Assembly: GCA_051362555.1 (NCBI GenBank)
Contig: CM120646.1
Span: forward strand, 3,782,001 to 3,846,000
Source of the DNA: Lingula anatina
Taxonomy: Eukaryota; Animalia; Brachiopoda
Length of the DNA: 64,000 nucleotides
Reading direction: 5' to 3'
How positions within the stretch are numbered: the first letter of the stretch is position 1; each line of letters begins with the position of its first letter. The translations under genes and the position numbers were made by a program. The notes beneath the pieces are model-generated. The model was not told the origin of the DNA. It did not search any database and worked only from the letters and a program-made list of their open reading frames with translations. This document shows, in pieces, positions 1 to 50,268 of the stretch.

Positions 1-416
1 ACTTCACTGGGCTGAAAACATCCTACGTAATATCCAACCGCCATTGCAAAATCTGGAAATTGGTGGATATTTGCATAAACACTCAATATATACTTCCGTG
101 AATAAAAATGGGAAGCAAAAATTGGAAATACCGTCTGTTTTAATATTTTACCAAGAGTCAAATACAAGATTATGCAATAGCATTATGAATTACCTTTGTC
201 AAAATATCTGTTCTCCGGCCTAGTTAAATTGGTCATTCCCAATAATTGTATATGTATGGGCATTATATTTTCGTAAATTACATTGCAAGGCCCCCAGCCC
301 ATATTTTATTTAACGTGTCAAGGGCTATTCCAAGTCTATATATATGTAATAAAGGTATGTGTTTTCCCCCAATATAACGCCTCATTTAATTAAGACGCAA
401 AAAGAAAAAATAATCA

Positions 417-466
<50 letters not shown>

Positions 467-2531
467 AAACTATAATAAAATAATTGGCACCTTTAGTCAG
501 GGTATAGCCGGATCTGATGGCTGTTGCAGCGACCAGAGGAGAACCCCCGTCATACCAAAGTAGACGGCGACTTATATTATCCGGCAATGGTTCTTCTAAA
601 ACGGAAAAAGTCTCACAATCATGAAGCACATACACAAAACATGTAAGATACCTGAAAAAAGAGCATTTCGTTTCTAAAGAGACAACGTTTTTTTTTATTT
701 AGGATGCACGACGTTTCACTTTTTCACCATCATACAAGCTACATCACCAATAACGATACAGTTTACTCAAATTGACTGTACACTCAGATTCAAATGTACA
801 ATATTTCAATATTATGTCGAACGATTGCTCGTTATTTTTCTTATATAAAGGGTAAAAAAATTCTTACAATCCCCACACTGTTCAACAGTCTTAATGAAGA
901 ATAGAGAATAATGAAGGGAAAATAGGAAAGAATCCAAAAGCGTTACATTGATCTCATTGCTCATAATAGGATTAACTGTAAAATGAAACTTTAGAACTTT
1001 AAGAAGTATTCATTTAAAGTTTTCGTGTACGTGTACAATTAAAAATTTCCCCCATTATTCGTAATTTATTTTTTATTAAAGTTAAACTGAGGATGGTTGC
1101 ACAACTGCCCCACCTGTCAACTGATAAACTTTGTCCAAATTGTTTTTGTGTGGCTCCTAGCTAGTTTGCGTTAAGTTTGATACACGTTACAACTGAAACA
1201 GCAGTTATTAAATAGCTTCTATTCCATTGACTTTAATATAACTCACTCCGTTGTCCAGGCATTATAAAGTTGAGGTAGGGTGGGACATTGGAGAACAGAC
1301 TGGGTGTGAGTGCCGGCAGTAACGGCTCCGATACCTTGTCTGGAATCAGAATATATTTAAATATAGACAACTGATCAGATTATTAATTGACGCAAATATA
1401 TCATTACTAAAATGCTCAGTTCATCACTATAATGAGGTGATTCTTATACTTGTTTTGGGACAAAAATATTTTTATAGTGTATGTCAACAGTCTAAGAATG
1501 ATAAACCGAATATGCTGACCAAATTCAAATAAGACTCCTTCGTGTTCAGTTAACCTATTTCGGAACTTTACCTTTCACTGACGTCAAACTGACTTCTTCA
1601 CAGACACCTCCATTAGTTGCTGTGACACAGTCAATGAAAGTTTGGGCACTGTCACTTAAACCGTATGTTGCTCTTTTAGGACAATGCGCAGCAATGTGGG
1701 TCGAGCCTGAGCATTTGACTGCAAGAGAAACTGTTTAAAATAATTATATTTAATAAAAAAAAAGATAAATTACTTAACTGTGCAAATGCTGTCCCTAATT
1801 GATAAATACACGCGGCATGGAACCGAGGTGGGTTGTTATATTTCACAAACGATTTTTATGAATAACCTTGTAAGTGTTTTGTTTTTAATTCTGCCCGCAT
1901 AATTTACATATAATCATTTTAGCCGTGGATGACTGACCGCAGTAAAGTGAATACTCGAGATAGACCATGGCCCATATGCTACTTGCGTGAAGATATACAT
2001 GTAGGTGATTATGTTTTAGATTGACTAATATTGTATAAATACATGCTTTTGCTATACTACCGTACAGTATATAAATTAATTATCTACCAGCATCCCTTCA
2101 ACCATATTAACGTAGTAAATGATTAAGATCGGGTCCGAGTTATAGGTATTTCAGTTTAATCGGCTTTATACCAGAGCTAAAATGTTAACCTTAGCCATCT
2201 TCCCTACCTTTTTTTCAGTTTTTAGTTTTCAATTTACTTATCGAAATGCATTTAATCCATGTTACACAAAACAAAGTTTTATAACTAAAACACACGACGT
2301 GACACCTGGTAATAAAAATATTAACTACTGGCCTTGATTTACAAGTGCTTGCCCGTCTTTTCAAATAGCTTTCACAACCAGAAAACTTACACAGGTCAGG
2401 GAATAATAAAAGTTAAAAATACTTATGAAAGGAATTTATCAAACGGTCTACGTACCTGTTATGGAGATGGAAGATACCACCATCCAAATAGCCCACGTAG
2501 TCCAATTATTCAATAGAATCATGTCGTTCAT
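1..2531 (-). CDS. TTLL4-like ATP-grasp ligase, type A copy A1 (5' part; 3' end beyond the left edge), signal-peptide-like N-terminus
   Basis: GT-AG exons 2531-2456, 1718-1572, 1339-1247, 595-491, 52-<1 splice in frame: MNDMILLNNWTTWAIWMVVSSISITVKCSGSTHIAAHC...[17 protein letters not shown]...EPLPDNISRRLLWYDGGSPLVAATAIRSGYTLTK. Exon-for-exon paralogue of A2. The PSLFSNVPP and LPxxxRRLLW segments resemble the start of the TTLL4 core. Confidence 0.85.
418..464. repeat. (AAT)n microsatellite, intronic
   Basis: Perfect AAT run; produces the poly-Ile tail of ORF 414..635. Confidence 0.95.
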
Positions 2532-3794: not shown

Positions 3795-6700
3795 TTAGTC
3801 TGCAAGGTGCTTTAGATCTTTACAATGAGCTTCCACTAGAGATATGCCCTCAGTTTCGTTTTTATGGAATCGTTTTAACCACTGGTGAATTAGAATATTG
3901 TGGTACCTGTAAAATAAATATTTCTTACGGTCCCTAAAATAAAAAATTGTGTTTTCAAGCAAAACAGCGTTACTGAATAGTTTCGTTCAATTAAATCCCA
4001 CAATAAATGTAATATACATTTGCCTATAGCCCAGAAAACGAACGAAATTTCCCCTTTTCAGTTAAAAAATGTTTAAAAAAAAAAGCTTCTCAACTGAACC
4101 AGGTCCAGTAATGGACGAATGCATCCCAGATAATTTACGCCACAACCAAACGGTAGGGTAGATATTTTCTTCTGCTTCGACAAATATTGCTAAAATCACC
4201 GCCAGATTGGACCTCTTCGAAAACAACTCGATACCTTACCTCGGCTTTTGGAAAAACTGGAAATATTTGTCTGTGTCTAATCTTGGGAAGATCCTGTCGA
4301 ATCCTCCCCGCCTGCTGTTCTCGTCTATGGTGTCAACGAGGACCCGGATGTCATCCGGTGTTAAATTGTCCAGGATAGTAGACAGAATCGTCTGGAAAAT
4401 CAAAAAAAATATTGGGACAATGCAAGTGATCAGATCTACACTGGAACACGTTTGTTCAGTTTCGCACCCGGGACTTAGAAAACAACAAAGTAACAAGATT
4501 GAAACGACCCAGAAAAAGAGCACATAAAATCACATATCCAGATATTCAATATGATGAAAACCTTACAATTTGTAACACTGTAACTCTTGGCAGCAAAATG
4601 GATGACACGGAATTATTTTATGTCAGATATACAGTAAAATCCTAAACGTGATGCGAAGGCCTTCTTTCACATTTTTTAAAATGGCGTTCTGTTTGTCAAA
4701 AAAACCTTGAACCCCACTTCAATCTGTGCTGCATAGACATGAGTTCGATAAAATACAAACCTCGTTCTTGTAGTTATCACAATAATATTTCTGTTTTGCT
4801 TTCTCTTCGCCAGACAACGTTTGTGACCACCACCGTTTGTCCAGCAGTAAGTGGTCAGGAACGTCAGACCCACTGGAATAGAAGTATTCGGCTTTCTTCA
4901 CCATGATACAAATGCAAATTCCCTCTTTATAATCTAGGCGTATTTTCCCTTTCGAGTCATGACATTTTTGCCCCTGACAATAGAGAGCCTTCCCCAAGAT
5001 GAACGATCGAAACGTGATGCTTCATACACTGTAAAAACAGTGTTTAGCTCTGAGACACATTTCTAAGCGCCTGTTTTGTCTCATTTTTTCCACGCGTGTA
5101 GCACCTAAGCACGTTTAGCCTATTAACATGTTACACGCTTTGACGTGCTTGACGCCTAATAAATGTAGGGTGTATTTGTTTAACTTTAAGGTTGTAACGT
5201 TTTCAACTGTTTCAGTCAATCTCTCACACACACACGCGCGCGCGCGAAGTCACGGTCACCTTTAACTGCTATAGCTATCTCTATCTATAACAGGGTACCG
5301 TGAACTGTCAACATAGTTGATTCACACCATCATCTTTACAGCGGGACTTATTCATCTTTGTGTTAGCTGACCTTGCGAGGAAATTAATTGGAATATATTT
5401 CTGAAAAACAAGTTAGGAAAATACACTAGTTTACTAAAGACTAAAAACAACTATCACTTTTACTTTAAAACATTTTTTTCATATTTTGATAAAATGCGTT
5501 AAGGTATTGATGTTCATTTATTTTTTCCGGAAGTAATGAACAATAGAACATCAGGATGATGGTGGGGTATTCATTATAATGGTTTTATTTAAGCTTTCAT
5601 CACATGCTGGTTATTTTGGTAACGATAGTCCGAATATTTTTCAAATCGCACCGCTCTAGTCGCCGACTAACCCAAGCCCATTTTGGAATTAACCGCTAAC
5701 TGTAGTTCATACAGCATAAGACGTGTTTTGGTGATTAATAAAAAAAGGTTCAAAACATTAAATTATGTTTTTCCAGAATGTTATAAAACGCTTATAAAAC
5801 TGCAAGGACATCATTTTGCATGGAGTTAAAAACACCCATAACGTTACCATGACGTTATTCTATACCATCACCATCATGTAACCAGCTGATAACGTCGTGA
5901 AAACGTTATTTGTTATTTGGATTATTACTTTATAGGCCTATTTTAAATAAGCACACGTTACTGCAAGGAAGGACACAACGCATTCGAGCAGGCTGCTTCT
6001 CGCCTCCAACTGCCCCATATGTTTACAAAGGGAAGTGTTAAGCAAAATTTTTGAGTCTTGTAATAAACTTGTTATGGGATCGTATATATGGGATTGTGAA
6101 GCATTTTTTTCTGTGACGAGCTTGAAAAGCTAAACATGTTGTTTAGCAGCTCCACGCGTTAAGGAATTCCACACCTATAGCAGCTCCATATGTTTAGCAG
6201 CCTCACGCGCTTAGCAGAGGAAGTGCTTAGCCAATGTGCTTAGCTTGTGATAGACTTGTTATAGAATCATATGCCGGTGAAGCTAAACACATAGCTAAAC
6301 GTGTAACAATGCCAACGTGTCTAGCTTTTTCTTCTGTGAAACGTTTGAAAAGCTATACGCGTTTAGCATTTACACAGATTTCTAAATGCGTATAGGTGCC
6401 TAACGTGTGTTGTATGTATTTAAATGCTAAACACTGTTTTTACAATGTAGGTATTATATATTTAGTCATTTTTAGAAACCACTTTTACCATCATTACGCT
6501 TGAGACAGCGAATTGTTTGTATTGTAGCAATGAGGATATTAAGAACAGATCAATATGCAATGTGATAAATGTTTACATTTTTTTCTATTACTACTAGATA
6601 ACTTGTAAGTCGTTTTCAATAGAGGCTGTCATTTAAACACAATTCATAAATATAGTAAGCTTTACCAACAAATGAAGAACAGTTTGTAGCTAGTTCAAGT

Positions 6701-9700
6701 TAAAATATCCCAGTATTATGAGAAGATGATTTACACAGTTGTCCAGAGCGGAATGTCTTACCTAGTGTTACTATTCTCTTTGTCTGTACTCTGATCACCA
6801 GGAATTCTGAACCCGGCCAAATTCAGCATGTCCTTGGCCATAGGGTCATTGACCGGGCGGAAGTGACCGGAGTGTGGGTATAACCTGTATAATGTAAAGG
6901 AGTAGATTCATTCAGTAAGTCTGATATCAAAAGATACATCGTAGCCGATGAAAGTCTCAAAATAAGCTTCTTAATACCCTGTGTGCCGAGGTTGCGACCA
7001 CGTGGAATACTAATTTTTGTCGACTTTCACATCCTTAAAAGTTAAGTTGGGGCTTTGACAATAATTGAAAGCCAACATCAAATTCATTCATCAGAGTTAA
7101 ATAACTTTAAATATTACAGCCCTTTTCTTTTATTACATATTTTGAAAAACTCTTACCCAGGTGCTATGTTGACCTCTAGGACCCAAGGCTTCAAGTTCTG
7201 GTCCAGAAGTATATCAAAACCGAACAGCTCATGCCCGCTGTATTTGCTCTGCAGGTAAATTTGTACTCCCTCATTTATCTCGGACTCTCCGCTGTTTTGA
7301 GGGAAAAACAACAGTTACTTTATGCATACGAACAATGGGATTTTATGGAAGAGAGAGCATGACCTTTTTCGAAACATACTTCTTGTTAGCAGCTGTTAAT
7401 GAAAGAACTGGCCACTAAAACTGTAAATGCGTGTGGGGCTATTGAAACAAAGTAAATATAAATCCTGGAAGATATGGGAAAAAACTTACCTACTTTTGGG
7501 CATGGCTAATTTTCATTTACTGCGAATATAGCAGACTTTACAATTTCAAACGCCAAACAAGGATACCCTATTTGTTTTCCATCGCATATAGGTCATTGTC
7601 ATAGCTCCAAAATAGTTCATTGTCTAAGTTTCAAAATTACGTAGCTTAATTCACCGTTAGTATTATATAAAGATTCATCTCTTACTCATACTTATGTAAG
7701 ATACATGTTACATTCTTTTAGGTTTGTTCGATTCCAATTCACTTCCTCATACACAGCAATGTTTTCGTATGAGATGGTGCCAGAGAGGTAAACGGGTGAA
7801 TTTACCTGATAATCGTTTTAAGGACGATATCTTTGATTTCCTCCCATATTGGCATCCAGTAGGTCCCGTTGTTTGTTTTAAGATATTCCTTTAATGCACT
7901 TAGTGACCTGAAGAAGAGAACACTATTCGTAGGCAAGCACAGGGAAATACAAATTCTTTTTTTACAAGGTTGCATCATTAAATGTTTGATAAAAAAGAAA
8001 ATAATGATAATAATAAAGAGACACTTATGTTTGACCAAAAAAAGCAATAACGAATTAGTTCAAAATATGCAGCCTCATCAATTTATGATGCTGGTGACCC
8101 CATAGTTAAAGTCCAAAAGGATGCCAAACCTGTGTAAACGTACTATTTCTTTATGTTGAACATGCTACCAAACATTGACTTACAGCAGTGAAATGGATAA
8201 ATCGTTACCTTTTGTGTCCTGTTTTCAGTGAATAATCCAATGTATATTCCGGATTCTTGGCGTTTACCTCAATATTGGTGAGGTGGACCATAGTGTCAAG
8301 GTCGTCCGTTGAAAACCTAGATAAGAAATGATATAATATTGAATTAAGTCATGATACATGTAAATGCGTACACTTTCATTCGCTTAGACTTTCCATTAAT
8401 TTAATAAGTCTACATCACAGTGCATCGCATACAGTCTATTTTTTACAAGAACAACAACAACAGTTACATACTTCTTTGTAGCAAACTTGACCACACCATC
8501 AGGGTACAGGTACACTCTTAGTGGGTTTATACTGGGGACGTAGGCGTAGATCCTCATGTCAAACTTATAACCATCTATGAGGTAAGGATTGGATATATAT
8601 CTGGAAGTGAATAAAACCAAGGTGTTATAAGACAGAAATCGACGATGTATCACGATGAGGTAGGTAGAAGCAATGATTATTGTTTTAACAAGTTTTTTAA
8701 TTTTAAATAGAAAAGTAAATATACTGTACGTGACGTGCACCTCTTGAATTTTCAAAGTGTTTTTCTCATAAAACAATTCATTAAAATTACTTATACCAAC
8801 TATTTTACACACACAAAAACATAGGCACACAAGCACACACACACCAACGCACGAACGAACACACACACCAGCCAAAAGTTTTACTGTTGACAAGATAACA
8901 TTCTACCTTTGTACCACAATCCTGGTGTAAGCAGGGATCTCTTCCTGTCGTCGTATCACTTCAATGCCCCTTCCTCCATGAAAACATGGCTTCCCATAGA
9001 CAAAAACATTATTTGGTGTAGATAAGTGTGATATTTATGATATAACTCCCACCCCACCACATTCGACATTAAATATTACATTACATTGCATTGCACTGCA
9101 CTGCACTGCACTGCACTGCACTGCACTGCATTACATTACATTACATTACATTACATTACATTAAATACAGTTATATCCTCTCGTCAAAACCTTGCCTACG
9201 ATTGCATATGCATGGATACGGTAAATTTTATCTTACAGGTTTAAGAATCCACAGATTGCCCTTCTGCTTGCTACCCCATGCTTTCTTGAGTAAGTCGGTT
9301 TCCTCTGGAAGGAGAAAGGTCGGTGGGAGAAAATCAAAGTTCTTTCTGCCATGTGCTTTCTTCATTTTGCGCACAGCGAGCTCCAGTCTGTCCTTGCAGC
9401 CAATACTCCAACTGCCTGGGAAGTGATTATACTGAAACATAACGTTATTTTATCTATTCCCTTAAAATATGCTTTTACATTGAATGTGCATTTTGCAATG
9501 CGTTTTAAAACTATAGTGACGATTGTCAAATATGTCCACAATAAGATTAATGTTCGTTTACAATTGCAATCAAGGTACTTAATTGTATTGGGAGACTATG
9601 TGAAAGTCGGTTTAGAGGCTGCAACTTTGTGTTTTTCAGTGTTTCTATCGGTTTGTCCAATCTTTTATATCTTATGAACTTTTCAATATTTTAAATCCTT

Positions 9701-12700
9701 TAGTACGTTTAAAACATACGATATGGTGTGTGCACAATTAGGGACAGTGGTACAGGTGACATGCTTGGAAGAGAAAGATGTATGAGATAGGTAAGAATAG
9801 GCCTACTAGTATTGTTTTTATCAGAACAGAGTGGTAGGCCTCCCTACAGGATAATCTTAAATTTTCTCAAGATTTTATCCCTTATTCCTTAAATCACCGA
9901 GTTATACCAGACCAAAGATATACAGAATCTATACAGGATCACAGTCTATACACTCGATTTTGAGTCTCAAAATTCTAGCTTTGAGTCATGCTAGAAATGG
10001 TGAAATGGTGAATTGCATTCGTGATGATAAATAATAGAGATTTGGAGCTAAAAAAAACTGGATAAATTATATAAAGAAAATTTTCTCATCATACCTTAGT
10101 TGGTAAAGGTAGTTAATTAGCAGTAATTTCCAGTAGACTGACATATTCTATTTAGACATCTACATATACATACCTAGGGATGTTATATGACCGTGGCGAT
10201 ATGATGATCACTGAAGCTTGTCCATTTAGCCAAGCTTCAGTGAAGATCGAGGGCAACCTCGAGCCGCTACCCAAAAAATGTCTCGCTTCACTCGACATTC
10301 CTGCGTAGCGTTTCTCGGAAAACTCGGATTTAACCTCGATGTAGTCTAGAATTTCACGACCACATCTTGGTTAAATCAGTCGAGGTATCTTAAATGCTGA
10401 AAGCCAAAGACAGAGTGATCATGTGACCTTCTTGGCATCAAGAGAATAGTGACGTTGCTTACGTTATATGGGGTCAAACGGCTGAAAGGTCATACTGGGT
10501 GAAAGTTGGGGGACAATTCAACACCCAGCTAGAGACAGAGAGGAGTGGAGGACCTTTGTTGACGCCCTAGACGCCCAACGGCGTAATAGGAGATAGTAGT
10601 AGTAGTAGTTACGTTATATACCTACCAGTAGACAAATTTAAAATCTCTCACACTCTTAAATAAATTAGCATAAACTTTTCACGTTTAACAATTATTATTT
10701 ATCATTTTATTACAATAAGTCATATCATATGGGTATGGTTTGAAAACGGGAATTAGTTTACATTTAAGCCTCACGTGTATACAAATTATTTGTAAATCTA
10801 TAACTTTTTAACGAGGGTTGTGTTATTTACCTTTTGTTTTTAAGCTGTTCATTCCTCCTCTTTATCAGATATATCGGTAAAAATCAAATGTATTCCCCCT
10901 TTGAACTTGTAATTACATGTAGCACATGAATGCTATGAAAACCAGCACATGTATATTCCGAAACCGTCTCGTAGCAAAAAATGTCACCAAAACGTAGAAT
11001 TATTACTCCTGTGGACTTGAAATAAACATCCGTTTGATTTTGACTATATTCCCTAACCGCTTCGTCGTCAGAAATAACAATAAAAAAACTAGAATTATTA
11101 CTCCCGTGAACTTGTAATAAACATCCGTCGATTTTGACTATATTCCGAAACTGCCTCGTTGTCAGAAATATCACCAAAAAGTAAATTTCTTTCTCCTTTG
11201 CACTTGTGAAAAATAAGTTTGACTATATTCCGGTCCGACGCTCCTTTCTTATCAGAAATGTCACTAAAAAGGAGAGGTTTTGCCTTGGGACCTTTTTTCC
11301 GCAGCAGTCCCAGCTAGGTGTGGCTCAGCTGAGACGCGCATGGTCAGTGTCGACGGTTGATTAAATACCTTTCAAGCCAGATGAACGTCCACGACAAGTA
11401 TTTAGCAAAAATTGACCAAATTGGTCAGACATTACGTAAGAATTTGGCGGGAGGTGACTAAGCGCACGTGGACGAGTTTACTCCGTATAACATCTCTAGA
11501 GCGTGATATAGGGTCACTTTATTCGGTTTTAGGGGTGTTTTAGGATGAAATGACTTCTTTTTTCTCGGTATGTATGTCAAATAATACACTGTCACCCTCT
11601 TGCGATATATGCCATGAAGTTATGGCATATATCGCTCGGGTGACAGTGTATTGTCTCACACGTAGCTCGGACCACATGCTTTTAAAATTGTAAGATATTA
11701 TATACAAAAGTTTGGGCAAATGTTCACCTTTTGACTGGGTCTCAAATTCTGGAACTTGTAGGTTTCACTGGGTTGTAAACATCCTACGTAATATCCAACT
11801 GCCAGAGAGAAATCTGGAAATAAATAGTAATAATAATTATATATTTAAGTATGGATTCAAAATTACGTGCACATACATGTATGCGCATTGGTTAAATATG
11901 AAGAGTAAAAATGCTGTCCATTTTAAACTTTGACCAAGAATCCAATGCACTATTATTGAATAGCGTTTTGAATTACGACCGCGAGACATGTTCTCCGGCC
12001 TATTACCGATTCATGTTAAATTGCCCATTTCCAATAATGGTATATAGTTTCCCAAATACAATATTATGACTTATTTTATGAAGATGCTAAAAAGAAGAAA
12101 CCAGCTAGACAGAAAATACAATGGAAGAAAAATCTCAGCGAAAATTTTAAAAACTTATTCATAAGATAAAATAATACTCTATGAAGACTATGGGTACTTT
12201 TAGTCAGGGAGTAGCCGGATCTGATGGCTGTTGCAGAGACGAGAGGGGAACCCCCGTCATACCAAAGTAGACGACGACCTATATTCTCCGGAAATGGTTC
12301 TTCTAAAACGGAAAGAAGTCTTACTATCATAAGAAGAATACATTAAAGAGAAAAGATACCAGTAAAGGATCCTCAGCATTTTGATTCTAATGAGACCTAA
12401 CGTATTTTTTATCAAGATGAATGACGTCTTCACTATTATACAAAAAAAAATCACAAAAAAAAACGATATATACGATTCACTCAAATTGAATATTCATCCC
12501 AATTCATATATACAATATTTCAGTATTATGACACGTGATTCCCGATTTTTCGTAATTTACTTATTAAAGCTACACTGAAGATGGTTGCACATCTGCCCTG
12601 CCTGCCTACTGTTAAAAATCCTATTTGCTTTGTTTTCGTGTTGCTCCTAGTTTGTGTCATGTAACAACTGAAATAGCTTCTTTGATATAACTCACTCTGT

Positions 12701-13484
12701 TGTCCAGGCATTATAAAGTTGATGTAGGGTGGGACATTGGAGAACAGGCTGGGTGTGAGTGCCGGCAGTAACGGCCCCGATACCTTGTCTGGAATCAGAA
12801 TATATAAAATATTTATACAACTGATGAGATTATTAATTGAAGCATACGCAACATGACTAAAATGCTCAGTTTACTAATGCCAGTTAACTGGCAAAAAATA
12901 TTATTTGAAGGGTATTGGATATACTACACGTATACTACATGATTGAAACCAAATATGTTGACAAAATCCAAAAAGGATCTCTTTGAATTTAGTTAAACGT
13001 TTTCAGGAGTTAACCTTTAACAGACTTCAATCTGACTTCTGCACAGATACCTCCATTAGTTGATGACAGTGTGACACAGTCAATGAAAGTTTGTGAACTG
13101 TCACTTAATCCATATGGCCCTTTTGGAGTTTGTTTTAGACAATGTACATCTGCTTGGGTCGAGTCTGAGCAATTGACTGCAAACGAAATTGTTTAAAATT
13201 ATTTTCAATAAAAAAGAAAAAAATGACATAATTGTACAAATGCTGTCCCTATCAGAGAAATACATGCTGTATGGAATCGACATGGGTGGTTAAATTTCAC
13301 ACACGGTTGTTATAACTTACCATTTTTAGCGTTTTGTCAAAATACAGTAACAAAAACGTCCTTATTTCAAGAGGTATATTTCAAAATAGAAATACAGAGA
13401 TGAGATACCTGTATTATAGCTGTGGTCGCAGAAAATCATAAATATCAGCACAGCCGATGTTGTCCACCCCTTCTTCCCAGCCAT
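3795..13484 (-). CDS. TTLL4-like ATP-grasp ligase, type A copy A2, 15 coding exons, 590 aa, signal-peptide-like N-terminus
   Basis: Exons 13484-13409, 13176-13015, 12788-12696, 12302-12198, 11813-11728, 9431-9237, 8989-8907, 8600-8472, 8316-8209, 7907-7806, 7291-7157, 6884-6762, 4872-4761, 4391-4240, 3906-3795 total 1773 nt in frame. TTL-family motifs: [70 protein letters not shown]4-type tail LDNLTPDDIRVLV...RRGGFDRIFP...PRYHNILIHQW. The acceptor at 8990 is weak but gives the same 83-nt exon as in type B. Confidence 0.9.
5027..6447. mobile_element. Non-autonomous CACTA/EnSpm-type DNA transposon in A2 intron 12
   Basis: TIRs CACTGTAAAAACAGTGTTTAGC ... GCTAAACACTGTTTTTACAATG flanked by TA on both sides (5025-26, 6448-49); many subterminal GCTAAACRCGT-like repeats; no long ORF. 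Confidence 0.75.
9075..9162. repeat. Compound pentanucleotide microsatellite (CATTA)n/(CACTG)n
   Basis: Directly visible in A2 intron 6; generates the MHCTALHCTALH ORF. Confidence 0.9.
10950..11270. repeat. Degenerate ~90-bp tandem repeat, about 3.5 copies, in A2 intron 5
   Basis: TATATTCC...CAGAAAT.TCACCAAAAA.GTAGAATT...ACTTG.AATAAACATCCGT recurs at ~10953, 11045, 11139 and 11224. Confidence 0.7.
11583..11652. repeat. Near-perfect hairpin, probably part of a non-autonomous DNA element
   Basis: AATACACTGTCACCC..GCGATATATGCCAT-gaagtt-ATGGCATATATCGC..GGGTGACAGTGTATT. A similar ACACTGTCACCC-bounded inverted repeat occurs in the type B spacers (~24505-24680, 33280-33440, 42932-43090). Confidence 0.65.
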
Positions 13485-13689
13485 GCTTTTTGCTGTCGGT
13501 GCATTGGCCTAATTTATCTGACCTGAGGCTTAATATTGTACGATCGTTGGTGCTATATACAGGTGTGAACATTATTAACGACATTCCAAGCACTGTAGGT
13601 CTCTTGGGTAGTCAATACTATGTGGACAACAATCCGCTCGATGTGTATTTAAGTGGTCTTGTGTAACCGCAGAATGGTGGGAAGAGTTA

Positions 13690-14166: not shown

Positions 14167-14197
<31 letters not shown>

Positions 14198-14685: not shown

Positions 14686-14691
14686 TTTATT
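14686..14691 (-). terminator. Putative polyadenylation signal AATAAA of B1
   Basis: TTTATT on + strand about 45 nt past the stop codon; conserved at the equivalent position in B2, B3 and B4. Confidence 0.6.
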
Positions 14692-16643: not shown

Positions 16644-16686
<43 letters not shown>

Positions 16687-24820: not shown

Positions 24821-24972
24821 TCATGCTTCAACATGTTTGAACTGGCGGCACAGCGACTCCAGAATGTCCCTCCCTGCCTTTTGGTTGTCATGGAAACGGC
24901 TGATCCATTGGTGAAGAAGTAGGTTGTAGTACCTAGGAGACATCATTTTACGACATTAACGAGAGTCGAAAA

Positions 24973-25007
<35 letters not shown>

Positions 25008-28000: not shown

Positions 28001-28289
28001 CAGCAAAGTTTGTTAAATGTGCGAATTTATTATAGACGTTTTTCATGGAAAACCTGAAATCGAAAAAGTTTAACGTGATTGTGGAGATACCCTATGCCAA
28101 AACTTCAGTGTAAATTAAGAAAGATTATTTATTACCAGAAAAGCAACCGCCTTCAGCCACCAAGAGTTTCATGAAATGTTATAGATTCGGTAAAGTGCTG
28201 ATTATCGATGTTTGTTAACATCGAACTTAGAAAACCGGGTAAACACATGATTGACACCCTGGTGGGTTAATTAATTTTCATTTATTAAC

Positions 28290-28334
<45 letters not shown>

Positions 28335-31300: not shown

Positions 31301-31747
31301 TATGATCAAATTATAAATTTAATGGTTAGTCTTAACAACATGAAGGTGCAGCTTTAAGCCCTTAGGTGGGGGGAAGGTGGGCGTCCGCTCTGGGTCGCTT
31401 CTATTGCTTTAGGCACTATGTCACTTCCCAAGACGATAAAAAACTCTCTTTTCAAGACTGAGTGCACTGTCTTAACTTTTCTAAATAAAGTGGGGAGGGA
31501 ATACCCTGTATCACAATTGTCATTTTTAAGCATAAGATCTTTTTTTCCCCAAAACAATATTTTGTATTTCCGATATGGAAAACAAAATGTCTTAATATTG
31601 GCAGCGAAGAGACATCATATTATCATCATCAATTATATTATTGAAAATAAAGCGAGGTTTAATATACTCACTTAAATCGATCTTGTCTGCCGAAATCTGA
31701 CGAAGAAATCCTATCGTACAAACAAGCAGAATCGTTCTGAAGGCCAT
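24821..31747 (-). CDS. TTLL4-like ATP-grasp ligase, type B copy B2, 14 coding exons, 586 aa, signal peptide
   Basis: Exons 31747-31672, 31299-31054, 30326-30222, 29992-29907, 29605-29411, 28982-28900, 28588-28460, 28053-27943, 27458-27357, 26965-26831, 26340-26221, 26010-25902, 25576-25425, 24932-24821. Same lengths as B1; no stops seen. Confidence 0.88.
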
Positions 31748-35438: not shown

Positions 35439-35486
<48 letters not shown>

Positions 35487-37072
35487 AGAGATTATTGAAA
35501 CAGAAATCGCCAACGTTTTTTCCTTGTTTTTTTGGCCCAAAGATGTCCCAAGATAGAAACCATAACATGTGGATTTATTTATAGAATTTAAACTTACAAA
35601 GGAGACACGTTGACCTCAAGCACCCACGGTTTGAGGTTAGCGTCCAAAAGAACGTCGAAGCCAAAGAGTTCATGAACGCTGTATCTGCTCTTTAGGTAGG
35701 ACTTGGCTGCCTTGCGCATGTCAGCCTCTCCGCTACGATATGTGATCAAACCATATCAATCATATACAGATATGTGATATCAAGACTATACGTGCATGTA
35801 TAAGATAACTAAGCGAACCACTATGATAACCAAATACATAAACAAGCCACAGATTCAGGCTATACACAGAAAGTTAACCTGCTGCAAAAATCATATCAGT
35901 TTGCAAAATGTCAGAAGATTAAACTTACTGTCAGCAGGTCATGCATGGCTGCGCAACAGTTTAAAACGTGCCAAAGTGTTTCCGTCAAACCAATATATCA
36001 ATTATTTTTTAGATTATTGAAATATCTTTCCAACCCCTCGGACTGTATCAAGCATACAGTATATATTCCTTCTTTGAGTACCCGTTTTGAAAGCAACGGT
36101 CAAAGTTTTAGGCTAGATGTTTACCTTATGGTAGTCTTGATAATTATATCTTTTATGTCCTCCCAAACCGGTTTTCGATCTATTCCGTGGTGCCGTTTTA
36201 AATATGCCCAAAACGAAGAATACGACCTGCAATTGAATTCATGGAGATCCAGCTTTGTCATATAGTGTCATGGTGTGGTATGCCATGCTATGTCATGCTA
36301 TGTCATGTTGTATCGTGCCATGTTATATCGTACTTTGCTATGTCATGCTATGTCACGTTATGCTATGTCATGCCCTGTTATGTTATGTTATGTTACGATT
36401 GTCATGATACGTTATATCATGTTATGTCATTTTAGAATATGTTATCTTATTCTATGTTACGTTATGCTATGGCATGCTTTATCATGTTTTAACATGTCTT
36501 GAATGGTATACCATGTTATGTGCTTTTATGTGATGTGATGTTTTATCATTTCATGTGATGTAAGATTTTTTTATGATAGACATCCTTCAACCATAAAGGG
36601 ACCCCTTAATTATGTACATTTTAAACATGTATTGAGAACATGTATTGCAACATTGCCGTTTATTTAAACGTTGTCACAAAGCTACTTATAATGGAGGCAT
36701 TGTCATTTCATTTGAAGTTATTATTACCAAGTGTGTCCTTCTTGCATCTCATGATCGATACGGAAGTCCTTCTTCTTACTATTGACAGCAAAGTTTGTTA
36801 AATGTGCGAATTTATTATACACGTTTTTCATGGAAAACCTGAAATCGAAAAAGTTTAACGTGATTGTGGAGATACCCTATGCCAAAACTTCAGTGTAAAT
36901 TAAGAAAGATTATTACCAGAAAAGCAACCGCCTTCAGCCACCAAGAGTTTCATGAAATGTTATAGATTCGGTAAAGTGCTGATTATCGATGTTTGTTTAC
37001 ATCGAACTTAGAAAACCGGTTAAACACATGATCGACACCCTGGTGGGTTAATTAATTTTCATTTATTAACCA

Positions 37073-37115
<43 letters not shown>

Positions 37116-40100
37116 ACCATTTGTTTCTTGGACTTTATGTTGTAAAATATGGTGTGCGAAAATGGCTCTCCTTTTGTTGACAATCTCTCTTAGCTGCAGT
37201 TTCGACTACTAAAGAATTAAATTATACAAAATATACTCACTTTTCGGAGGCAAATCTAACTAGACCTTCTGAATATAGGTATATCCGTAATGGGTCCACA
37301 GAAGTCACTTCCACGTAAATCCGCAAATCGAACTTGTACCCTTTGATGAGGAAAGGGTTCGGGACATACCTTGTGAAATTTCGAAAAAGTGCAATGCAAC
37401 AAATCATGTTAATAGATTCTCTTAACTCCAATACAGAACACGAGCGTATCTGGGAACCGGGAAAAACACTCGAGCAACAGCGATAACATAGAATTAAAAA
37501 ACGGATTAAAGTGTACATTTGATGCTTTGATTTGATCTGGAATGATAGTGAGAATTAGAATAATAAAAAATTATCTCTTCAGATACTTATTTGTCATAAA
37601 AAGAGAAATCAATGCAGTTCGACAATACACAGGCACCATATATGTCTCAATAGTTTTAGTGCTTATAGCAAACTACTTGCCTTTGTACGACAGCATTTCG
37701 GAACCTGTTGGCGTCTTGCCACTTTCGTGTCATATATATTCCAACTGCTTTACTGTAACAGTACTAAGAGCAAGGAGTGAAATGTACGTTACAATACATG
37801 ATGGCAGTGCAGCATGTTTCATTCAATTAAACAATGAATCAATCAATATTTATTATCGATTCAATTGCCTATTTTACAAAGTCCATTGCAGAAAAATTTC
37901 ATCGTGGAACAATTGCATGTGCTAACTTATAATCCATTTATAGGAAAGATATGCTGTAATGATAATTTAGAAATCTACAGAAAATGTGTTAAAAGATAAA
38001 AGAAAGAAACATTACACAAAGATTAAGACTCAAATGATACCAACTTCAATGGCATACTTAGCAGGCAGCCTTTCGGTGGTCAGTAGATATTTAAAAAGTC
38101 GAAAGAGATCATTTAAACAAGTATTTATAGTGCATTTATAGTGCACTGGTTTAATCAGTATAATTGGATCAAATAACAGGCGCCGATTTCATCATTTACC
38201 GGTTTGACAATCCAGACATGGTCTTCAGTACTGCTGGGTAAAAACTGTCGAAGCTGGTTGACGTCAGTTGGAAGAAGGAAAGTAGTTGGATAAAAGCCGT
38301 ATTCCTTTTTTCCGTGAATCAGCGCCATGTTTTGCAAATTCCGCGTCAGTCTGTCTTTGCATCCAATTGTCCAGCTGTCCGGAATGAATGAGAACTGAAA
38401 GAAAACTTCCACTAATTGTAAAACATCCAATTCATTCACTTTATTCATTCTACAAAGAGTTAAATCGACAAAATGTATATCATGAAAATGAAATAAATTA
38501 ATGGCTGTATTTGATCGGCTTTTACTGTCAACTTAGCCTGTCGATATTCAAGAATGATAAGGGGTTGGTGCCAATCGAACTAAACTCAATTCCCCTTTTT
38601 TTCTGAAATCATATGGGCTTTTTTTCAGAGATATTTTGATGGTCCATTTCAATTGCAACAGGAAGATTGTATCCCCTAAATATCATTCATTTACCTTCTG
38701 CTGTGGTGAGATGTTCAGATAAGATTCCATTTCCCTAGGTTTGAATGCTTTATGAAAATACAACGTCCATTTCTGAACATCTGGAACCATAAAACATACT
38801 TTATATACTACAAAACCCTTTCCTTACTTAACCATTGCAGACAGATACAGAAACAGAATGCACGTTTCAATTTGATTTTTTTTCACAGTAAGATGCACTG
38901 CTAAGGTAATACGGAACATTTGTTTTTTTTTTTGAAATTGCTCGGATTGGAAAAGATGAGAATTTTCAATTTTGGTATGTTACCTGGATGCTAATTTCAT
39001 AAAATTGACTCACCTTTTGTAGGTGCGAAACCAACTTTAAAAGCCAGCTCTAAAGCAATATCGCTCCCTTTGTGATAAATAGTCAATAGGCTTCTTATCC
39101 GAGGACTCAACATACCAACTGAAGGCAAGGAATGTGACATATAAAAAGAACATATAGAACGAAGTTCAGTTTGGTTCTTCTGTAATGCACTGTAGGTTTT
39201 TGTATATATTGTATTGTACGTTCTACAATATTACATTGATATTTCAGTGACTGTGCACCTGCGAGTGTGTATGCATTGTATTAAGTTACACAACTGTACT
39301 GATGAAGTGTATCATTTTGTATTTGTAACGTAATGTGCTTTCTGATTCTGTGATGTATTACATGTCTTTGTATGTTTGTATATATTGTAATAGCATGTAT
39401 TGTATTTGTATATGCTTAATAAAAAAAGGTTTGGTATGTTTTGCACAGAAGAAAAGACAAGTGTGTATGCATTGTTGTCCTCGAAATTTCTAATCTTTTT
39501 TAATGTTAACCTTGGTTTTCCTATCTGACCACACAGCATCAAACCGGTTTACCCCCCACAGTTACCAAAGAGCGCATTCAGAATACCGGACTAACAGATC
39601 CGCGGATCAAATATGACCGACCCACTTGAATGTTTGTTGCAATAATCCCCCTGGTTAATCTTTTCAGTGTCTAATTGGGAATTAAGCACCAAGCTTTTTA
39701 GTGGTTCCCTATATTTGTTCCGGGGACAAGTAAATCCACTGTTGTGAATGTGCTCAAACTCTTTTCGATGGGAATTTTACGTATGTCAGTAAACAACCTC
39801 GACCAGCTCACCATCTTCATCCAGCAGCACGAAGTTGATGGTCGGTGGCACGTTTGAGAACAGGCTGGGAGTCAGGGCTGGATGCACGTGGTGTTTTTCT
39901 TTATCTTGAGACACCCCAGGCTGAACTCGAACCGTGGTCTTGGGACAAATCTCTGATGGTGTTTCCCGGGTTCCTGTGCCGCCTGGAGTAGTTCCAGTGA
40001 TTGCTTGTTTCTCACAAACATCATTATCCGGCCCATTTAGTTGGTGGCAATTGTATGCTATGATCAAATTATAAATTTAATGGTTAGTCTTAACAACATG

Positions 40101-40527
40101 AAGGTGCAGCTTTAAGCCCTTAAGTGGGGGGAAGGTGGGCGTCCGCTCTAGGTCGCTTCTATTGCTTTAGGCACTATGTCACTTCCCAAGACGATAAAAA
40201 AGTCTTCCTTTTTTCGAATAATAACCCTCTTTTCAAGACTGAGTGCACTGTCTTAACTTTTCTAAATAAAGTGGGGAGGGAATACCATGTATCACAATTG
40301 TCATTTTTAAGCATAAGATCTTTTTTCCCAAAAACAATATTTTGTATTTCCACTATGGAAAACAAAATGTCTTAATATTGACAGCGAAGAGACATCATAT
40401 TATCATCATCAATTATATTATTGAAAATAAAGCGAGGTTTAATATACTCACTTAACTCGATCTTGTCTGCCGAAATCTGACGAAGAAATTCTATCGTACA
40501 AACAAGCAGAATCGTTCTGAAGGCCAT
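33577..40527 (-). CDS. TTLL4-like ATP-grasp ligase, type B copy B3, 14 coding exons, 586 aa, signal peptide with G13E
   Basis: Exons 40527-40452, 40057-39812, 39118-39014, 38780-38695, 38394-38200, 37763-37681, 37369-37241, 36838-36728, 36226-36125, 35732-35598, 35085-34966, 34755-34647, 34329-34178, 33688-33577. Same lengths as B1. Confidence 0.88.
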
Positions 40528-46627: not shown

Positions 46628-46662
<35 letters not shown>

Positions 46663-49600
46663 TGTGTGTGTTTGCTGCCATTTGTTTCTTGGACTTAATG
46701 TTGTAAAATATGGTGTGCGAAAATGGCTCTCCTTTTGTTGACAATCTCTTTTAGCTGCAGTTTCGACTACTAAAGAATTAAATTATACAAAATATACTCA
46801 CTTCTCGGAGGCAAATCTAACTAGACCTTCTGGGTATAGGTATATCCGTAATGGGTCCACCGAAGTCACTTCCACGTAAATCCGCAAATCGAACTTGTAC
46901 CCTTTGATGAGGAAAGGGTTCGGGACATACCTTGTGAAATTTCGAAAAAGCGCAAAGCAACAAATCATGTTAATAGATTCTTTATACAGATACACGAGCG
47001 TATCTGGGAACCGGGAAAAACACTCGAGCAACAGCGATAACATAGAATTAAAAACGGGTTACAGTGTACATTTTGATGCTTTTAATTGGTCTGGAATGAT
47101 AGTGAGAATAAGAATAATAAAACATTATTTCTTCAGATAGTCATTTGTCATAAAAAGAGAAATCAATGCAGTTCGACAACACCCAGCCACCATTGTCTCA
47201 ATAGTTTTAGTGCTTATAGCACACTACTTGCCTTTGTGCGACAGCATTTCGGTACTTGTTGGCGTCTTGCCACTTTCGTGTCATATATATTCCCGCTGCT
47301 TTACTGTAACAGTACTTTAAGCAAGGAGTGAAATGTATGTTACGATACATGATGGCAGTGCAGCATGTTTCATTCAATTAAGCAATGAATCAATCAGTAT
47401 TTATCGATTTAATGGCCTATTTTACAAAGCCCATTGCAGAAAAATTTCATCGTGGAACAATTGCATGTGCTAACTTATAATCCATTTATAGGAAAGATAT
47501 GCTGTAATGATAATTTAGAAATCTACAGAAAATGTGTTAAAAGATAAAAGAAAGAAACATTTCACAAAGTTTAAGGCTCAAATGATACCAACTTCAATGA
47601 CATACTTAGCAGGCAGCCTTTCGGTGGTCAGCAGATTTTTAAAAAGTCGATAGAGATAATTTAAACTGGTGCACTGGTTTAATCAGTATAATTGGATCAA
47701 ATAACAGGCGCCGATTTCAACATTTACCGGTTTGACAATCCAGACATGGTCTTCAGTGCTGCTGTGTGAAAACTGTCGAAGCCCGTTGACATCAGTGGGA
47801 AGAACGAAGGTAGTTGGATAAAAGTCGTATTCCTTTTTCCCGTGAATCAGCGCCATGTTTTGCAAATTCCGCGTCAGTCTGTCTTTGCATCCAATTGTCC
47901 AGCTGTCCGGAATGAATTTGAACTGAAAGAAAAACTTCCACTAATTGTAAAACATCCAATTCATTGACTTTATTCATTCTACAAAGAGTTAAATTGACAA
48001 AATGTATATCGTGAAAATGAAATAAATTAATGGCTGTATTTGATCGCCTTTTACTGTCAACTTAGCCTGTCGATATTCAAGGATGGTTAGGGGTTGATGC
48101 CAATCGAACTAGACTCAATTCCCCTTTTTTCTGAAATCATATGGGCTTTTTTTTCAGAGATATTTTGATGGTCCATTTCCATTTCCATTGTATCCCCTAA
48201 ACATCCTTAATTTACCTTCTGCTGCGGTGATATGTTCAGAAAAGATTCCACTTCCCTGGGTTTAAATGGTTCATGAAAATACATCGTCCAGTTTTGAGTA
48301 TCTGGAACCATAAAACATACTTTATATATTACAAAAGACTTTCCTTACTTAACAATTACAGACAGATACGGAAACCGAATGCATGTTTCGATTCATTTTT
48401 TTTTTTTTTCATAGTAAGACCCCATTCCCAGAGATTAGATGGATCCAACTAGATCGGCCTAACTCCCTGGGGGGTCACGCTAACTAGCTGTCAGCCGAGC
48501 GGGCACGAAAGTTAATTACCCCCTTACAGCTTGTAGTAGGCGGGACGGACATTTAAGCCAGATTATCTAACAGTAATCTAGTGAGACTCCCAACAGGGAC
48601 AGATCAATCTAAAATCTATGGGATTGCGCCCTAAGATGCACTGCTAAAGTAATGCAGAGCATTTTTTTTCTTGAAATTTTCAATTTTGTTATGTAACCTG
48701 GATGCTAATTTCATAAACTTAACTCACCTTTTGTAGGCGCGAAACCAACTTTAAATGCCAGCTCTAAAGCAATATCGTTCCCCTTGTGATAAACAGTCAA
48801 TAGGTTTCTTATCCGAGGACTCAACATATCAACTGAAGGCAAGGAATGTGAAAGATAAAAAGAACATATAGATCGAAGTTCAGTTTGTAATGCACTGTTG
48901 GTTTTTGTATATATTGTATTGTACGTATTACAATATTATATTAATATTTCAGTGACTGTGCACCTGTGAATGTGTATGTATTGTATTAAGTTACACAACT
49001 GTACTGATGTAGTGTATCTTTTTGTATTTGTAACATAATGTGCTTTCTGTTTCTGTGATGCATTGCATGTTTTTGTATGTTTATATATATATTGTAATGT
49101 GTTGTATTGTGTTTGTATATGCTTAATAAAAAAAATGGTTTGGTATGTTTTGCACAGAAGAAAAGACAACAAGTACGTTTCTGTCCATGAAATTTCTAAT
49201 CTTTTTTTATGTTAACCTTGGTTTTCCTTCCTGACCACACAGCATCAACCCGTTTTACCCCCCACAGTTACCAAAGAGCGCATTCAGAATACCGGACTAA
49301 CAGACCCGCGGATCAAATATGATCGACCCAATTGAATGCTTGTTGCAATAATCCCCTTGGTTAATCTATTAAGTGTCTAATTGGGAATAAAGCGCCCAGC
49401 TTTTTAGTGGTTCTCCATATTTGATCCGCGGACAAGTAAGTCCACGTACTGTTGTGAATGTGCTCAAATTCTTTTCGATGGGAATTTTACGTATGTCAGT
49501 AAACAACCTCGACCAGCTCACCATCTTCATCCGGCAGCACGAAGTTGATGGTCGGTGGCACGTTTGAGAACAGGCTGGGAGTCAGGGCTGGATGCACATG

Positions 49601-50268
49601 GTGTTTTTCTTCATCTGGATATTCCTCAGGCTGAACTCGAACCGTGGTCCTGGGACAACTCTCTGATGGTTTTTCCCGGGTTCCTGTGCCGCCTGGAGTA
49701 GTTCCAGTGATTGCTTGTTTCTCACAAACATCATTATCCTGCCCATTTAGTTGGTGGCAATTGTATGCTATGCTCAAATTATAAATTTAATGGTTAGTCT
49801 TAACAACATGAAGGTGCAGCTTTAAGCCCTTAGGTGGGGGGGGGGGGGGGGAAGGTGGGCGTCCGCTCTGGGTCGCTTCTATTGCTTTAGGCACTATGTC
49901 ACTTCCCAAGACGATAAAAAAATCTCCCTTTTTTCGAAAAATAACTCTTTTCAAGACTGAGTGCACTGTCTTAACTTTTCTAAATAAAGTGGGGAGGGAA
50001 AACCCTGTATCACAATTGTCATTTTCAAGCATAGGGGCTTTTTCCCCAAAACAATATTTCGTATTCATAATAATGACATTTTCACACTTCATTGGTATTT
50101 CGATATGAAAAACAAAATGGTTTAATATAGGCACCAAAGAAACATCATGTCAATCATATTATTGACAATAAAGCGAGGTTTAATATACTCACCTAACTCG
50201 ATCTTATCTGCCGAAATCTGACACAGAAATCCTATCATACAAACAAACAGAATCACTCTGAAGGCCAT
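43229..50268 (-). CDS. TTLL4-like ATP-grasp ligase, type B copy B4, 14 coding exons, 586 aa, signal peptide
   Basis: Exons 50268-50193, 49767-49522, 48832-48728, 48301-48216, 47922-47728, 47314-47232, 46930-46802, 46393-46283, 45814-45713, 45342-45208, 44712-44593, 44382-44274, 43972-43821, 43340-43229. N-terminus [25 protein letters not shown]. Confidence 0.88.
48418..48631. mobile_element. PIF/Harbinger-like MITE unique to B4 intron 3
   Basis: TAA duplication at 48415-17 and 48632-34; empty site AG-TAA-GATGCACTGC in B2 (~30100) and B3 (~38888); imperfect TIRs GACCCCATTCCCAGAGATT / AATCTATGGGATTGCGCCC. Confidence 0.85.

What the first reader, a model, noticed from the sequence alone, without database searches (positions are those of the whole stretch)
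1..50268. Tandem array of six TTLL4-derived ligases, each with a signal-peptide-like first exon: candidate secretory-pathway protein-modifying system
Seen: every copy starts with a 76-nt phase-1 exon (2531-2456, 13484-13409, 21384-21309, 31747-31672, 40527-40452, 50268-50193). It encodes [22 protein letters not shown] (B1, B2), [22 protein letters not shown] (B3), [22 protein letters not shown] (B4), MAGKKGWTTSAVLIFMIFCDHSYNTVNC/S (A2) or MNDMILLNNWTTWAIWMVVSSISITVKC/S (A1). Each has a short n-region, a hydrophobic core and small residues at -3/-1. Exon length and character are kept between A and B although the sequence is not. A 50-70 aa Cys-containing linker leads straight into the TTLL4 core, and the protein ends soon after the last conserved helix. 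Established: TTLL4 is a cytosolic tubulin/protein glutamylase with a long disordered N-terminus and no signal peptide. ATP-using enzymes do work in the ER/Golgi lumen (Fam20C kinase), and CPED1 is, as I recall, a secreted protein with an ATP-grasp domain. Inference: a TTLL4 duplicate acquired a signal exon and was amplified into a family that ligates amino acids or amines onto Glu side chains of secreted proteins (matrix, shell, mucus, adhesive or defence peptides). I know of no description of this, but cannot check the literature here.
Basis: partly seen in the sequence, partly recalled or inferred. Interest (0 to 1): 0.95.

Follow-up and report, generated by a model that had tools for sequence, protein, structure and literature searches.

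The report
Secreted tubulin-ligase family in a brachiopod
In the lamp shell Lingula, a row of transcribed copies of the tubulin-modifying enzyme TTLL4 lacks the usual long front end, starts instead with a short exon predicted to be a secretion signal, and keeps its ATP site but has a rebuilt amino-acid pocket, so these enzymes likely attach amino acids other than glutamate to proteins in the secretory pathway, a chemistry known mainly from the cytosol.

Summary
All six 76-nt first exons are present. Five genes are complete and free of stops; A1 is cut by the window edge. The proteins match Lingula anatina RefSeq models at 98-99%. RNA reads show the exon 1-2 splice for both types (A: 25 reads in 6 of 8 runs; B: 17 reads in 2 of the 4 runs laid at 82%). 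RefSeq models on other scaffolds carry further paralogs with different signal-like starts, and the paralogs tested form one clade inside TTLL4. All keep the ATP, Mg and phosphoryl-transfer residues. B copies lose both lysines that hold donor glutamate, A2 loses one, and the initiase arginine is gone. All gain a cysteine pair found in 0 of 304 other TTLLs. Best reading: lumenal or secreted amide ligases with paralog-specific donors (about 0.5). Entry into the secretory pathway (about 0.8), activity and substrates are inferred. SignalP was not available, and the family was not found in the published shell proteome. Precedent: CPED1, a predicted secreted TTL-like enzyme. The scan noted similar genes earlier on other DNA (an arthropod-like genome and a protist). 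New variant of a known kind.

The parts
1..2531 (-). Gene A1, partial (exons 2531-2456, 1718-1608, 1339-1247, 595-491, 52-window edge); signal-like exon 1, Cys linker, start of the TTLL4 core
2456..2531 (-). A1 first exon, 76 nt, weakly hydrophobic signal-like segment
   Evidence: scored just under the cut-off of the crude rule
3795..13484 (-). Gene A2, 15 exons, 578 aa: 13484-13409, 13176-13051, 12788-12696, 12302-12198, 11813-11728, 9431-9237, 8989-8907, 8600-8472, 8316-8209, 7907-7806, 7291-7157, 6884-6762, 4872-4761, 4391-4240, 3906-3795
   Evidence: 11 of 14 introns shown as exact read joints, 1 with other letters between, 2 not among the joints displayed; 98% identical to XP_013413700.1 over 301 aa
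13409..13484 (-). A2 first exon, 76 nt; in-frame stop 9 codons upstream
   Evidence: joint 13176/13409 in 25 reads over 6 of 8 runs; zero depth in stranded runs X1 and X2 at 13644-14911
14736..21384 (-). Gene B1, 14 exons, 586 aa: 21384-21309, 20919-20674, 20242-20138, 19760-19675, 19395-19201, 18810-18728, 18410-18282, 17858-17748, 17290-17189, 16882-16748, 16241-16122, 15911-15803, 15481-15330, 14847-14736
   Evidence: 5 of 13 introns among the displayed read joints at 82% likeness; 98% identical to XP_013388994.1; Pfam TTL on exons 5, 7 and 10
21309..21384 (-). B1 first exon, 76 nt, signal-like with predicted cleavage after residue 20
   Evidence: joint 20919/21309 in 7 (X8) and 10 (X9) reads, 0 in X3 and X5; reads cannot be assigned among B1-B4
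24821..31747 (-). Gene B2, 14 exons, 586 aa; first exon 31747-31672
   Evidence: 87% identical to B1
33577..40527 (-). Gene B3, 14 exons, 586 aa; first exon 40527-40452 (Glu in the hydrophobic core)
   Evidence: 95% identical to B2; part of a 9-kb tandem duplication at 95% DNA identity
43229..50268 (-). Gene B4, 14 exons, 586 aa; first exon 50268-50193
   Evidence: 98-99% identical to the split RefSeq models XP_013413703.1 and XP_013413702.1
21385..21640 (-). Conserved non-coding region upstream of each B ATG (B1 copy): TATA-like GTATAAA in all four copies, frameshifting indels 30-45 nt before the ATG, and a TCAG 6 nt before the ATG that could be an initiator or a splice acceptor
   Evidence: alignment; the promoter reading is inference

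Best explanation
These genes are a Lingula family of TTLL4 duplicates that lack the long N-terminal region and start with a transcribed exon predicted to be a signal peptide, so they likely fold in the ER and likely act as ATP-dependent amide ligases that join amino acids other than glutamate to carboxyl groups of secreted proteins. Mechanism, step by step. (1) Shown: a spliced signal-like exon, then a 45-65 aa poorly conserved Cys-bearing linker, then a complete TTLL4 core with no C-terminal tail. (2) Inferred: the signal is cleaved, and a new Cys pair closes a disulfide that ties the phosphate-binding loop to the N-domain at a site used to grip the tubulin tail. (3) Inferred from kept residues: ATP and two Mg ions phosphorylate an acceptor carboxylate to an acyl-phosphate, as in all TTL and TTLL enzymes. 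(4) Inferred from changed residues: the donor is still an alpha-amino acid, but its side chain differs between paralogs, because the two lysines that clamp donor glutamate are lost or altered. (5) Unknown: the acceptor proteins, the tissue and the linkage type.
For: Exon 1-2 joints in reads for A (25 reads, 6 of 8 runs) and B (17 reads, 2 of the 4 runs); sense strand in stranded runs; no sense coverage in the 1.3 kb upstream of A2. The N-terminal regions of 11 canonical-type TTLL4 hits give no credible tblastn hit in the window (one hit at E 0.66), while the full protein P0006 gives 32 hits, all on modelled exons. RefSeq paralogs on other scaffolds (XP_013397583.1, XP_013397584.1, XP_013398234.1, P0166, P0208) have hydrophobic starts of unlike sequence; 7 of 11 pass the crude signal rule against 4 of 274 controls. 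In TTLL6 numbering (bioRxiv 2020.06.07.139295), K125, K174, R219, T263, N264, D346, E359 and N361 are kept wherever covered, and R241 is kept in all but A2 (Lys). The donor lysines K283/K377 are T/H in B1-B4, K/N in A2 and R/T, R/I or R/M in others, whereas 297 of 305 other hits keep both. Cys stands at both the R124 and S177 positions in every family member that covers them and in 0 of 304 others. In TTL, Arg73 and Ser152 (one residue before the S177 position) bind the same tubulin Glu, so the two sites are near each other (PMC3563685 passage). The core has 2-5 Cys and net charge -9 to +14 (12 rows), against 6-12 Cys and +21 to +36 in 13 named mollusc, echinoderm, chordate and Hydra TTLL4. 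Core dN/dS is 0.29-0.46 in all 6 B pairs. An AlphaFold model of paralog P0004 is a confident TTLL fold (pLDDT 83.9; best match TTLL6, E 2.9e-30).
Against: No SignalP or DeepTMHMM, no localisation and no activity data. B3, A1, P0004 and P0208 fail the crude signal rule. B1-B3 have an AG just before the ATG and all four B copies have a TCAG 6 nt upstream, so an upstream exon is not excluded for B (12 and 18 joints were not displayed). Most laid reads are under 95% alike, so they come from another population or paralog. B is barely covered in 4 of the 5 runs X1-X5, and at low depth in the others. Most copies carry no ER-retention signal, and sequon counts are no higher than in cytosolic TTLL4. 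Low core charge also occurs in canonical arthropod TTLL4 (+2 in Daphnia, +5 in Sipha). The disulfide distance was not measured, because no coordinates were available. P0004 may keep both donor lysines. The family is not in the shell proteome supplement searched. A supply of free amino acids in the ER or Golgi lumen is not established (own knowledge).
Confidence: 0.5

Rival explanations
1. The proteins are secreted or lumenal but no longer ligate. They bind or hydrolyse ATP, or bind acidic matrix proteins, for instance releasing phosphate in an animal that mineralises apatite.
For: The donor pocket and the initiase Arg are degraded in different ways in different paralogs, which could be relaxed constraint. 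Some CPED1 orthologs were judged inactive (PMC2824669 passage).
Against: The arginines that stabilise the transferred phosphate and the donor alpha-carboxylate are kept (R219 in all; R241 in all but A2), and core dN/dS is well below 1. The family is not in the shell proteome supplement.
Confidence: 0.18
2. The family enters the secretory pathway but remains a set of glutamylases that add Glu or poly-Glu to secreted proteins.
For: P0004 may keep both donor lysines and A2 keeps one; several paralogs have Arg at the K283 position. Polyanionic chains would suit mineral binding (inference).
Against: Mutating either lysine abolishes TTLL6 activity, and B1-B4 lack both.
Confidence: 0.12
3. The hydrophobic start is a membrane anchor or is not used, and the catalytic core stays in the cytosol, acting on tubulin or other cytosolic proteins.
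For: Some signals are weak (A1, B3). An upstream exon is not excluded for B. Reads do not define the 5' ends.
Against: The hydrophobic core of B is only about 11 residues, short for an anchor. The tubulin-tail Arg is replaced by Cys, basic charge is reduced, and a unique Cys pair is gained while other Cys are lost.
Confidence: 0.14
4. The B-type start is a mitochondrial presequence.
For: B1-B3 have arginines at positions 4 and 16 and no acidic residue before the predicted cleavage site, except in B3.
Against: B4 lacks the second Arg, and the other paralogs have plainly hydrophobic starts.
Confidence: 0.04
5. The copies are assembly artefacts or decaying duplicates.
For: B2 and B3 are a recent 95% duplication, and repeats lie between the copies.
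Against: No stops, purifying selection, spliced reads and matching models in an independent RefSeq annotation.
Confidence: 0.02

Closest known systems
TTLL4, tubulin monoglutamylase of the initiase type (Pfam PF03133)
   Same: Whole core homologous (42-46% identity to Haliotis TTLL4), nested in the TTLL4 clade, shared intron positions, same ATP and Mg residues.
   Different: No long N-terminal region and no C-terminal tail; signal-like first exon; initiase Arg replaced by Lys or Gly; donor-glutamate lysines lost or varied; new Cys pair; multigene family.
CPED1/C7orf58, predicted secreted TTL-like ATP-grasp enzyme (PMC2824669)
   Same: A TTL-related ligase domain in a secreted protein, predicted to add amino acids to cell-surface polymers.
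   Different: CPED1 is a multidomain protein with cadherin-like and PC-esterase domains and is only distantly TTL-like; the Lingula proteins are single-domain and derive directly from TTLL4. No direct sequence comparison with CPED1 was run.
TTL and the TTLL3/8/10 glycylases
   Same: Same fold and chemistry with non-glutamate donors; they too lack the two donor lysines.
   Different: They are cytosolic and form separate subfamilies; the Lingula residues at the two positions (T/H, K/N, R/T and others) do not match the TTL Glu/Tyr pair.
Secreted AID/APOBEC-like deaminases (SNADs), as an evolutionary analogy
   Same: An intracellular enzyme family with members that gained a signal peptide (abstract listings PMC5889660 and PMC11004436).
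   Different: Unrelated fold and chemistry.

Membership tests
TTL/TTLL family (PF03133) | TTL domain by profile and fold | tested here: met
   Pfam TTL above the curated cut-off on three B1 exons; the model of paralog P0004 matches TTLL6 at E 2.9e-30
TTL/TTLL family (PF03133) | ATP, Mg and phosphoryl-transfer residues (TTLL6 K125, K174, R219, R241, N264, D346, E359) | tested here: met
   all kept in B1-B4; R241 is Lys in A2
TTLL4 subfamily (descent) | Groups with TTLL4 to the exclusion of TTLL5 | tested here: met
   SH-aLRT 99 for the TTLL4 side and 96 for the metazoan clade, quick tree with long branches; no canonical Lingula TTLL4 was available
TTLL glutamylases (function) | Two invariant lysines that bind the donor glutamate gamma-carboxylate (K283, K377) | tested here: not met
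   T/H in B1-B4 and K/N in A2; both kept in 297 of 305 other hits
TTLL4-type initiases (function) | Arg at the TTLL6 Q180 position | tested here: not met
   Lys in B1-B4, Gly in A2 and the other paralogs
TTLL4-type initiases (function) | Ile at the TTLL6 H362 position | tested here: inconclusive
   Val in B, Ile in A2, Thr in P0004
TTLL glutamylases (function) | Glutamylation of tubulin in the cytosol | not testable with these tools
   needs an enzyme assay
CPED1/C7orf58 family | Fusion to cadherin-like and PC-esterase domains | tested here: not met
   the 578-586 aa proteins consist of signal, linker and TTLL core only
Secretory-pathway proteins | Cleavable N-terminal signal peptide | tested here: inconclusive
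   crude rule only: 7 of 11 family members pass against 4 of 274 controls; SignalP was not available
Secretory-pathway proteins | ER translocation, glycosylation, disulfides | not testable with these tools
   the conserved Cys pair is indirect evidence only

The most novel reading that the evidence does not exclude
Lingula runs a secretory counterpart of the tubulin code: ten or more TTLL4-derived enzymes, each with its own donor pocket, write different amino acids onto, or form ATP-driven amide cross-links between, acidic secreted proteins of the shell, pedicle, chaetae or mucus. Animals and protists have recruited TTLL enzymes into the secretory pathway several times, which would make lumenal amino-acid ligation an unrecognised class of protein modification.
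Probability: 0.25. Interest if true: 0.92.

Novelty: new variant of a known kind. Interest (0 to 1): 0.78.

Why it matters
TTLL enzymes are treated as cytosolic and nuclear writers of the tubulin code (own knowledge). The only secreted TTL-like enzyme found in my searches is CPED1, which was predicted in 2010. A compact, transcribed, single-domain family with intact catalytic residues and naturally varied donor pockets makes two questions directly testable: whether ATP-dependent amino-acid ligation happens in the ER, Golgi or outside the cell, and how TTLL donor specificity is encoded. If true, secreted proteins of brachiopods, and perhaps arthropods, carry mass adducts that standard proteomics would miss.

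Tried and rejected
No whole genome was held, so the family was counted from RefSeq proteins, and no canonical Lingula TTLL4 turned up among the named hits. No RNA holder was listed by the run index; the runs laid were same-species additions. A hidden upstream TTLL4 N-terminal coding region was rejected by tblastn. The open frames upstream of the B2 and B4 ATGs, and the in-frame upstream Met in B1 and B3, are not conserved across the copies because of 10-11 nt indels. Non-Lingula members of this clade: none was found among 150 phmmer hits or 118 + 47 profile hits; P0107 (Logan, N-terminus missing, no Cys pair) is a weakly supported sister (SH-aLRT 86). Independent origin of the signal-bearing P0341 is favoured by the tree but not proven: forcing it into one clade with the Lingula proteins gave p-AU 0.093. 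N-glycosylation sequons were uninformative. My recollection that invertebrate TTLL15 has a membrane anchor was not confirmed by the passages of PMC5051658, and the search returned only Golgi papers. The disulfide geometry could not be measured because the fold tool returns no coordinates. The Atlas gave only TTL clusters for P0004 and nothing above 0.9 for the neighbouring gene's exon. A search of earlier findings by sequence was blank.
Full report
Observation. The six 76-nt exons are at the stated places on the minus strand, each from ATG to a phase-1 GT donor. I modelled the genes from the DNA. B1-B4 have 14 exons and 586 aa, with no stops and with GT-AG introns except a GC-AG intron 6 shared by all four. 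A2 has 15 exons and 578 aa; A1 is cut by the window edge after exon 5. The B proteins are 85-95% identical to each other, and A2 is 45% identical to B1. B2 and B3 lie in a 9-kb tandem duplication at 95% identity.

Source. B1 exon 5 is identical to part of XP_013388994.1, 'TTLL4-like [Lingula anatina]'. RefSeq models match B1, B4 and A2 at 98-99% and start at the same Met where they include the start. The window is therefore from the brachiopod Lingula anatina or a very close form. No whole genome was held.

Transcription. Eight of the nine listed RNA runs were laid. The exon 1-2 joint has 8, 5, 2 and 0 reads in X1, X2, X7 and X4 and 6, 2, 2 and 0 in X3, X8, X9 and X5. The stranded runs X1 and X2 read the minus strand and have zero depth at 13644-14911 and 15546-19983, so no upstream exon is seen for A2, which also has an in-frame stop 9 codons before its ATG. 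For B, the exon 1-2 joint has 7 reads in X8, 10 in X9 and none in X3 or X5, and 5 of 13 introns are displayed (12 joints not shown); one search displayed no B joint. Limits: most reads are under 95% alike, so they come from another population or paralog and cannot be assigned among B1-B4; depth is low; 5' ends are not defined. An AG just before the B1-B3 ATG leaves an upstream exon possible, but the region has frameshifting indels between copies, and the N-terminal regions of 11 canonical-type TTLL4 hits give one hit in the window at E 0.66, against 32 hits for the core, all on modelled exons.

A larger family. Some may be alleles or fragments of one gene. The five whose starts I scored begin with hydrophobic segments of unlike sequence. 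A crude signal rule passed 7 of 11 family starts and failed B3, A1, P0004 and P0208, against 4 of 274 other hits of at least 500 aa that start with Met. This is not SignalP. In a 38-row tree (B3, B4 and three fragments left out; quick IQ-TREE, LG+C20), the 8 Lingula rows form one clade (SH-aLRT 97) inside metazoan TTLL4 (96) (FastTree on 63 rows agrees). Exon-skipped models of canonical TTLL4 break at B1 introns 4/5 and 7/8, which points to DNA-level duplication.

Active site. I took residue roles from bioRxiv 10.1101/2020.06.07.139295 (parts 2-4 of 8 read) and mapped them through the TTLL6 alignment. K125, K174, R219, T263, N264, D346, E359 and N361 are kept in every row that covers them among 12 family rows; R241 is kept in all but A2, which has Lys. 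The paper states that K283 and K377 hold the donor glutamate, are invariant in glutamylases, differ in TTL and the glycylases, and are each essential. They are T/H in B1-B4, K/N in A2, and R/T, R/I or R/M in other paralogs; P0004 may keep both. Among other hits, 297 of 305 keep both (323 proteins examined, including redundant isoforms). The Arg that favours isopeptide initiation is Lys in B and Gly elsewhere. Every family member that covers the sites has Cys at the R124 and S177 positions, against 0 of 304 others. In TTL the matching Arg73 and the neighbouring Ser152 bind one tubulin Glu (PMC3563685, one passage), so a disulfide is plausible but unmeasured. Core Cys (2-5) and net charge (-9 to +14) are lower than in 13 named mollusc, echinoderm, chordate and Hydra TTLL4 (6-12; +21 to +36), though some arthropod TTLL4 are as low in charge. 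Core dN/dS is 0.29-0.46 in the 6 B pairs and about 1 or more in the linker. An AlphaFold model of P0004, a paralog outside the window, has mean pLDDT 83.9 with residues 28-98 under 50 and matches TTLL6 best.

Mechanism. Shown: gene structure, splicing of the first exon, kept catalytic residues and a remodelled donor and acceptor site. Inferred: ER entry (about 0.8), a disulfide, acyl-phosphate chemistry as in TTL and TTLL, and donors other than glutamate that differ by paralog; jointly about 0.5. Unknown: acceptors, linkage and tissue. Rivals are a secreted ATPase or binder (0.18), a cytosol-facing enzyme (0.14), a lumenal glutamylase (0.12), mitochondrial targeting (0.04) and artefact (0.02). 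Lumenal ATP import and use by Golgi kinases is recalled, not checked here. The shell is not a supported site: no TTLL entry and no family motif was found in the supplement of the 2026 shell proteome paper PMC13425148 (passages and supplement searches) or in that of PMC4595640 (abstract listing and supplement search). A lumenal enzyme need not be deposited in the shell.

Recurrence. P0341, from marine JGI, ENA and Logan records, has a signal-like start, a TTL domain and an altered donor pocket but no Cys pair, and it groups with arthropod TTLL4 (SH-aLRT 95). Forcing it together with the Lingula clade was not rejected (p-AU 0.093), so separate origins are favoured but unproven. P0269 and P0270 (ENA) have hydrophobic starts and C-terminal TTL domains. 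Two earlier AI notes of this scan describe similar genes in an arthropod-like genome and a protist; they are unchecked leads, not support.

Literature. [quoted passage not shown] My searches (listings and abstracts only) found no description of signal-bearing TTLL4 in Lingula or elsewhere. The library holds only open-licence PubMed Central papers and bioRxiv, and bioRxiv supplements are closed, so a mention elsewhere is possible.

Verdict. It descends from TTLL4 but fails the glutamylase and initiase tests, so it should not be filed as a functional TTLL4. New variant of a known kind; interest 0.78.

Noticed in passing
window 52457-58950, minus strand: Multi-exon gene upstream of B4 with its own stop near 52457. 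It looks like IQCB1/NPHP5 (name recalled, from no call; the Atlas gave only ARM-repeat clusters under 0.9). It leaves about 2.2 kb before the B4 ATG.
   Followed up: partly
window 22930-23295, plus strand: Tc1/mariner-type transposase remnant between B2 and B1 (Pfam HTH_Tnp_Tc3_2, E 1.2e-07).
   Followed up: partly
window 41888-42750: Tandem array of a 62-bp unit, 13.9 copies at 95% identity, between B4 and B3.
   Followed up: no
window 21738-21953, 32150-32365, 40936-41151, 51326-51564: About 200-bp palindromic, MITE-like element upstream of each B copy; many repeat-derived RNA reads land on the copy that was laid.
   Followed up: no
window 18727-18411 and the matching intron 6 of B2-B4: GC-AG intron kept in all four B copies and seen as a read joint; the RefSeq model XP_013413703.1 reads through it and ends early.
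   Followed up: yes
window 60000-61800: Exon-like frames of another gene, probably on the plus strand, one with a weak EF-hand match under the curated cut-off.
   Followed up: no
P0341 / P0104 cluster (JGI, ENA, Logan): Signal-bearing, strongly diverged TTLL4 that groups with arthropod TTLL4; R241 position is Phe, both donor lysines are lost, and there is no Cys pair.
   Followed up: partly
P0269, P0270 (ENA): 830-850 aa proteins with hydrophobic starts, a long unannotated middle part and a C-terminal TTL domain; an Atlas cluster of TTL proteins with Peptidase_M8 in 18% of members may be related.
   Followed up: partly
window 13000-21400, runs X1-X9: A-type and B-type genes differ across runs: A2 is covered in X1-X3 and hardly in X4-X5; B joints appear in X8 and X9, and one in X5. 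This hints at different tissues or stages.
   Followed up: no
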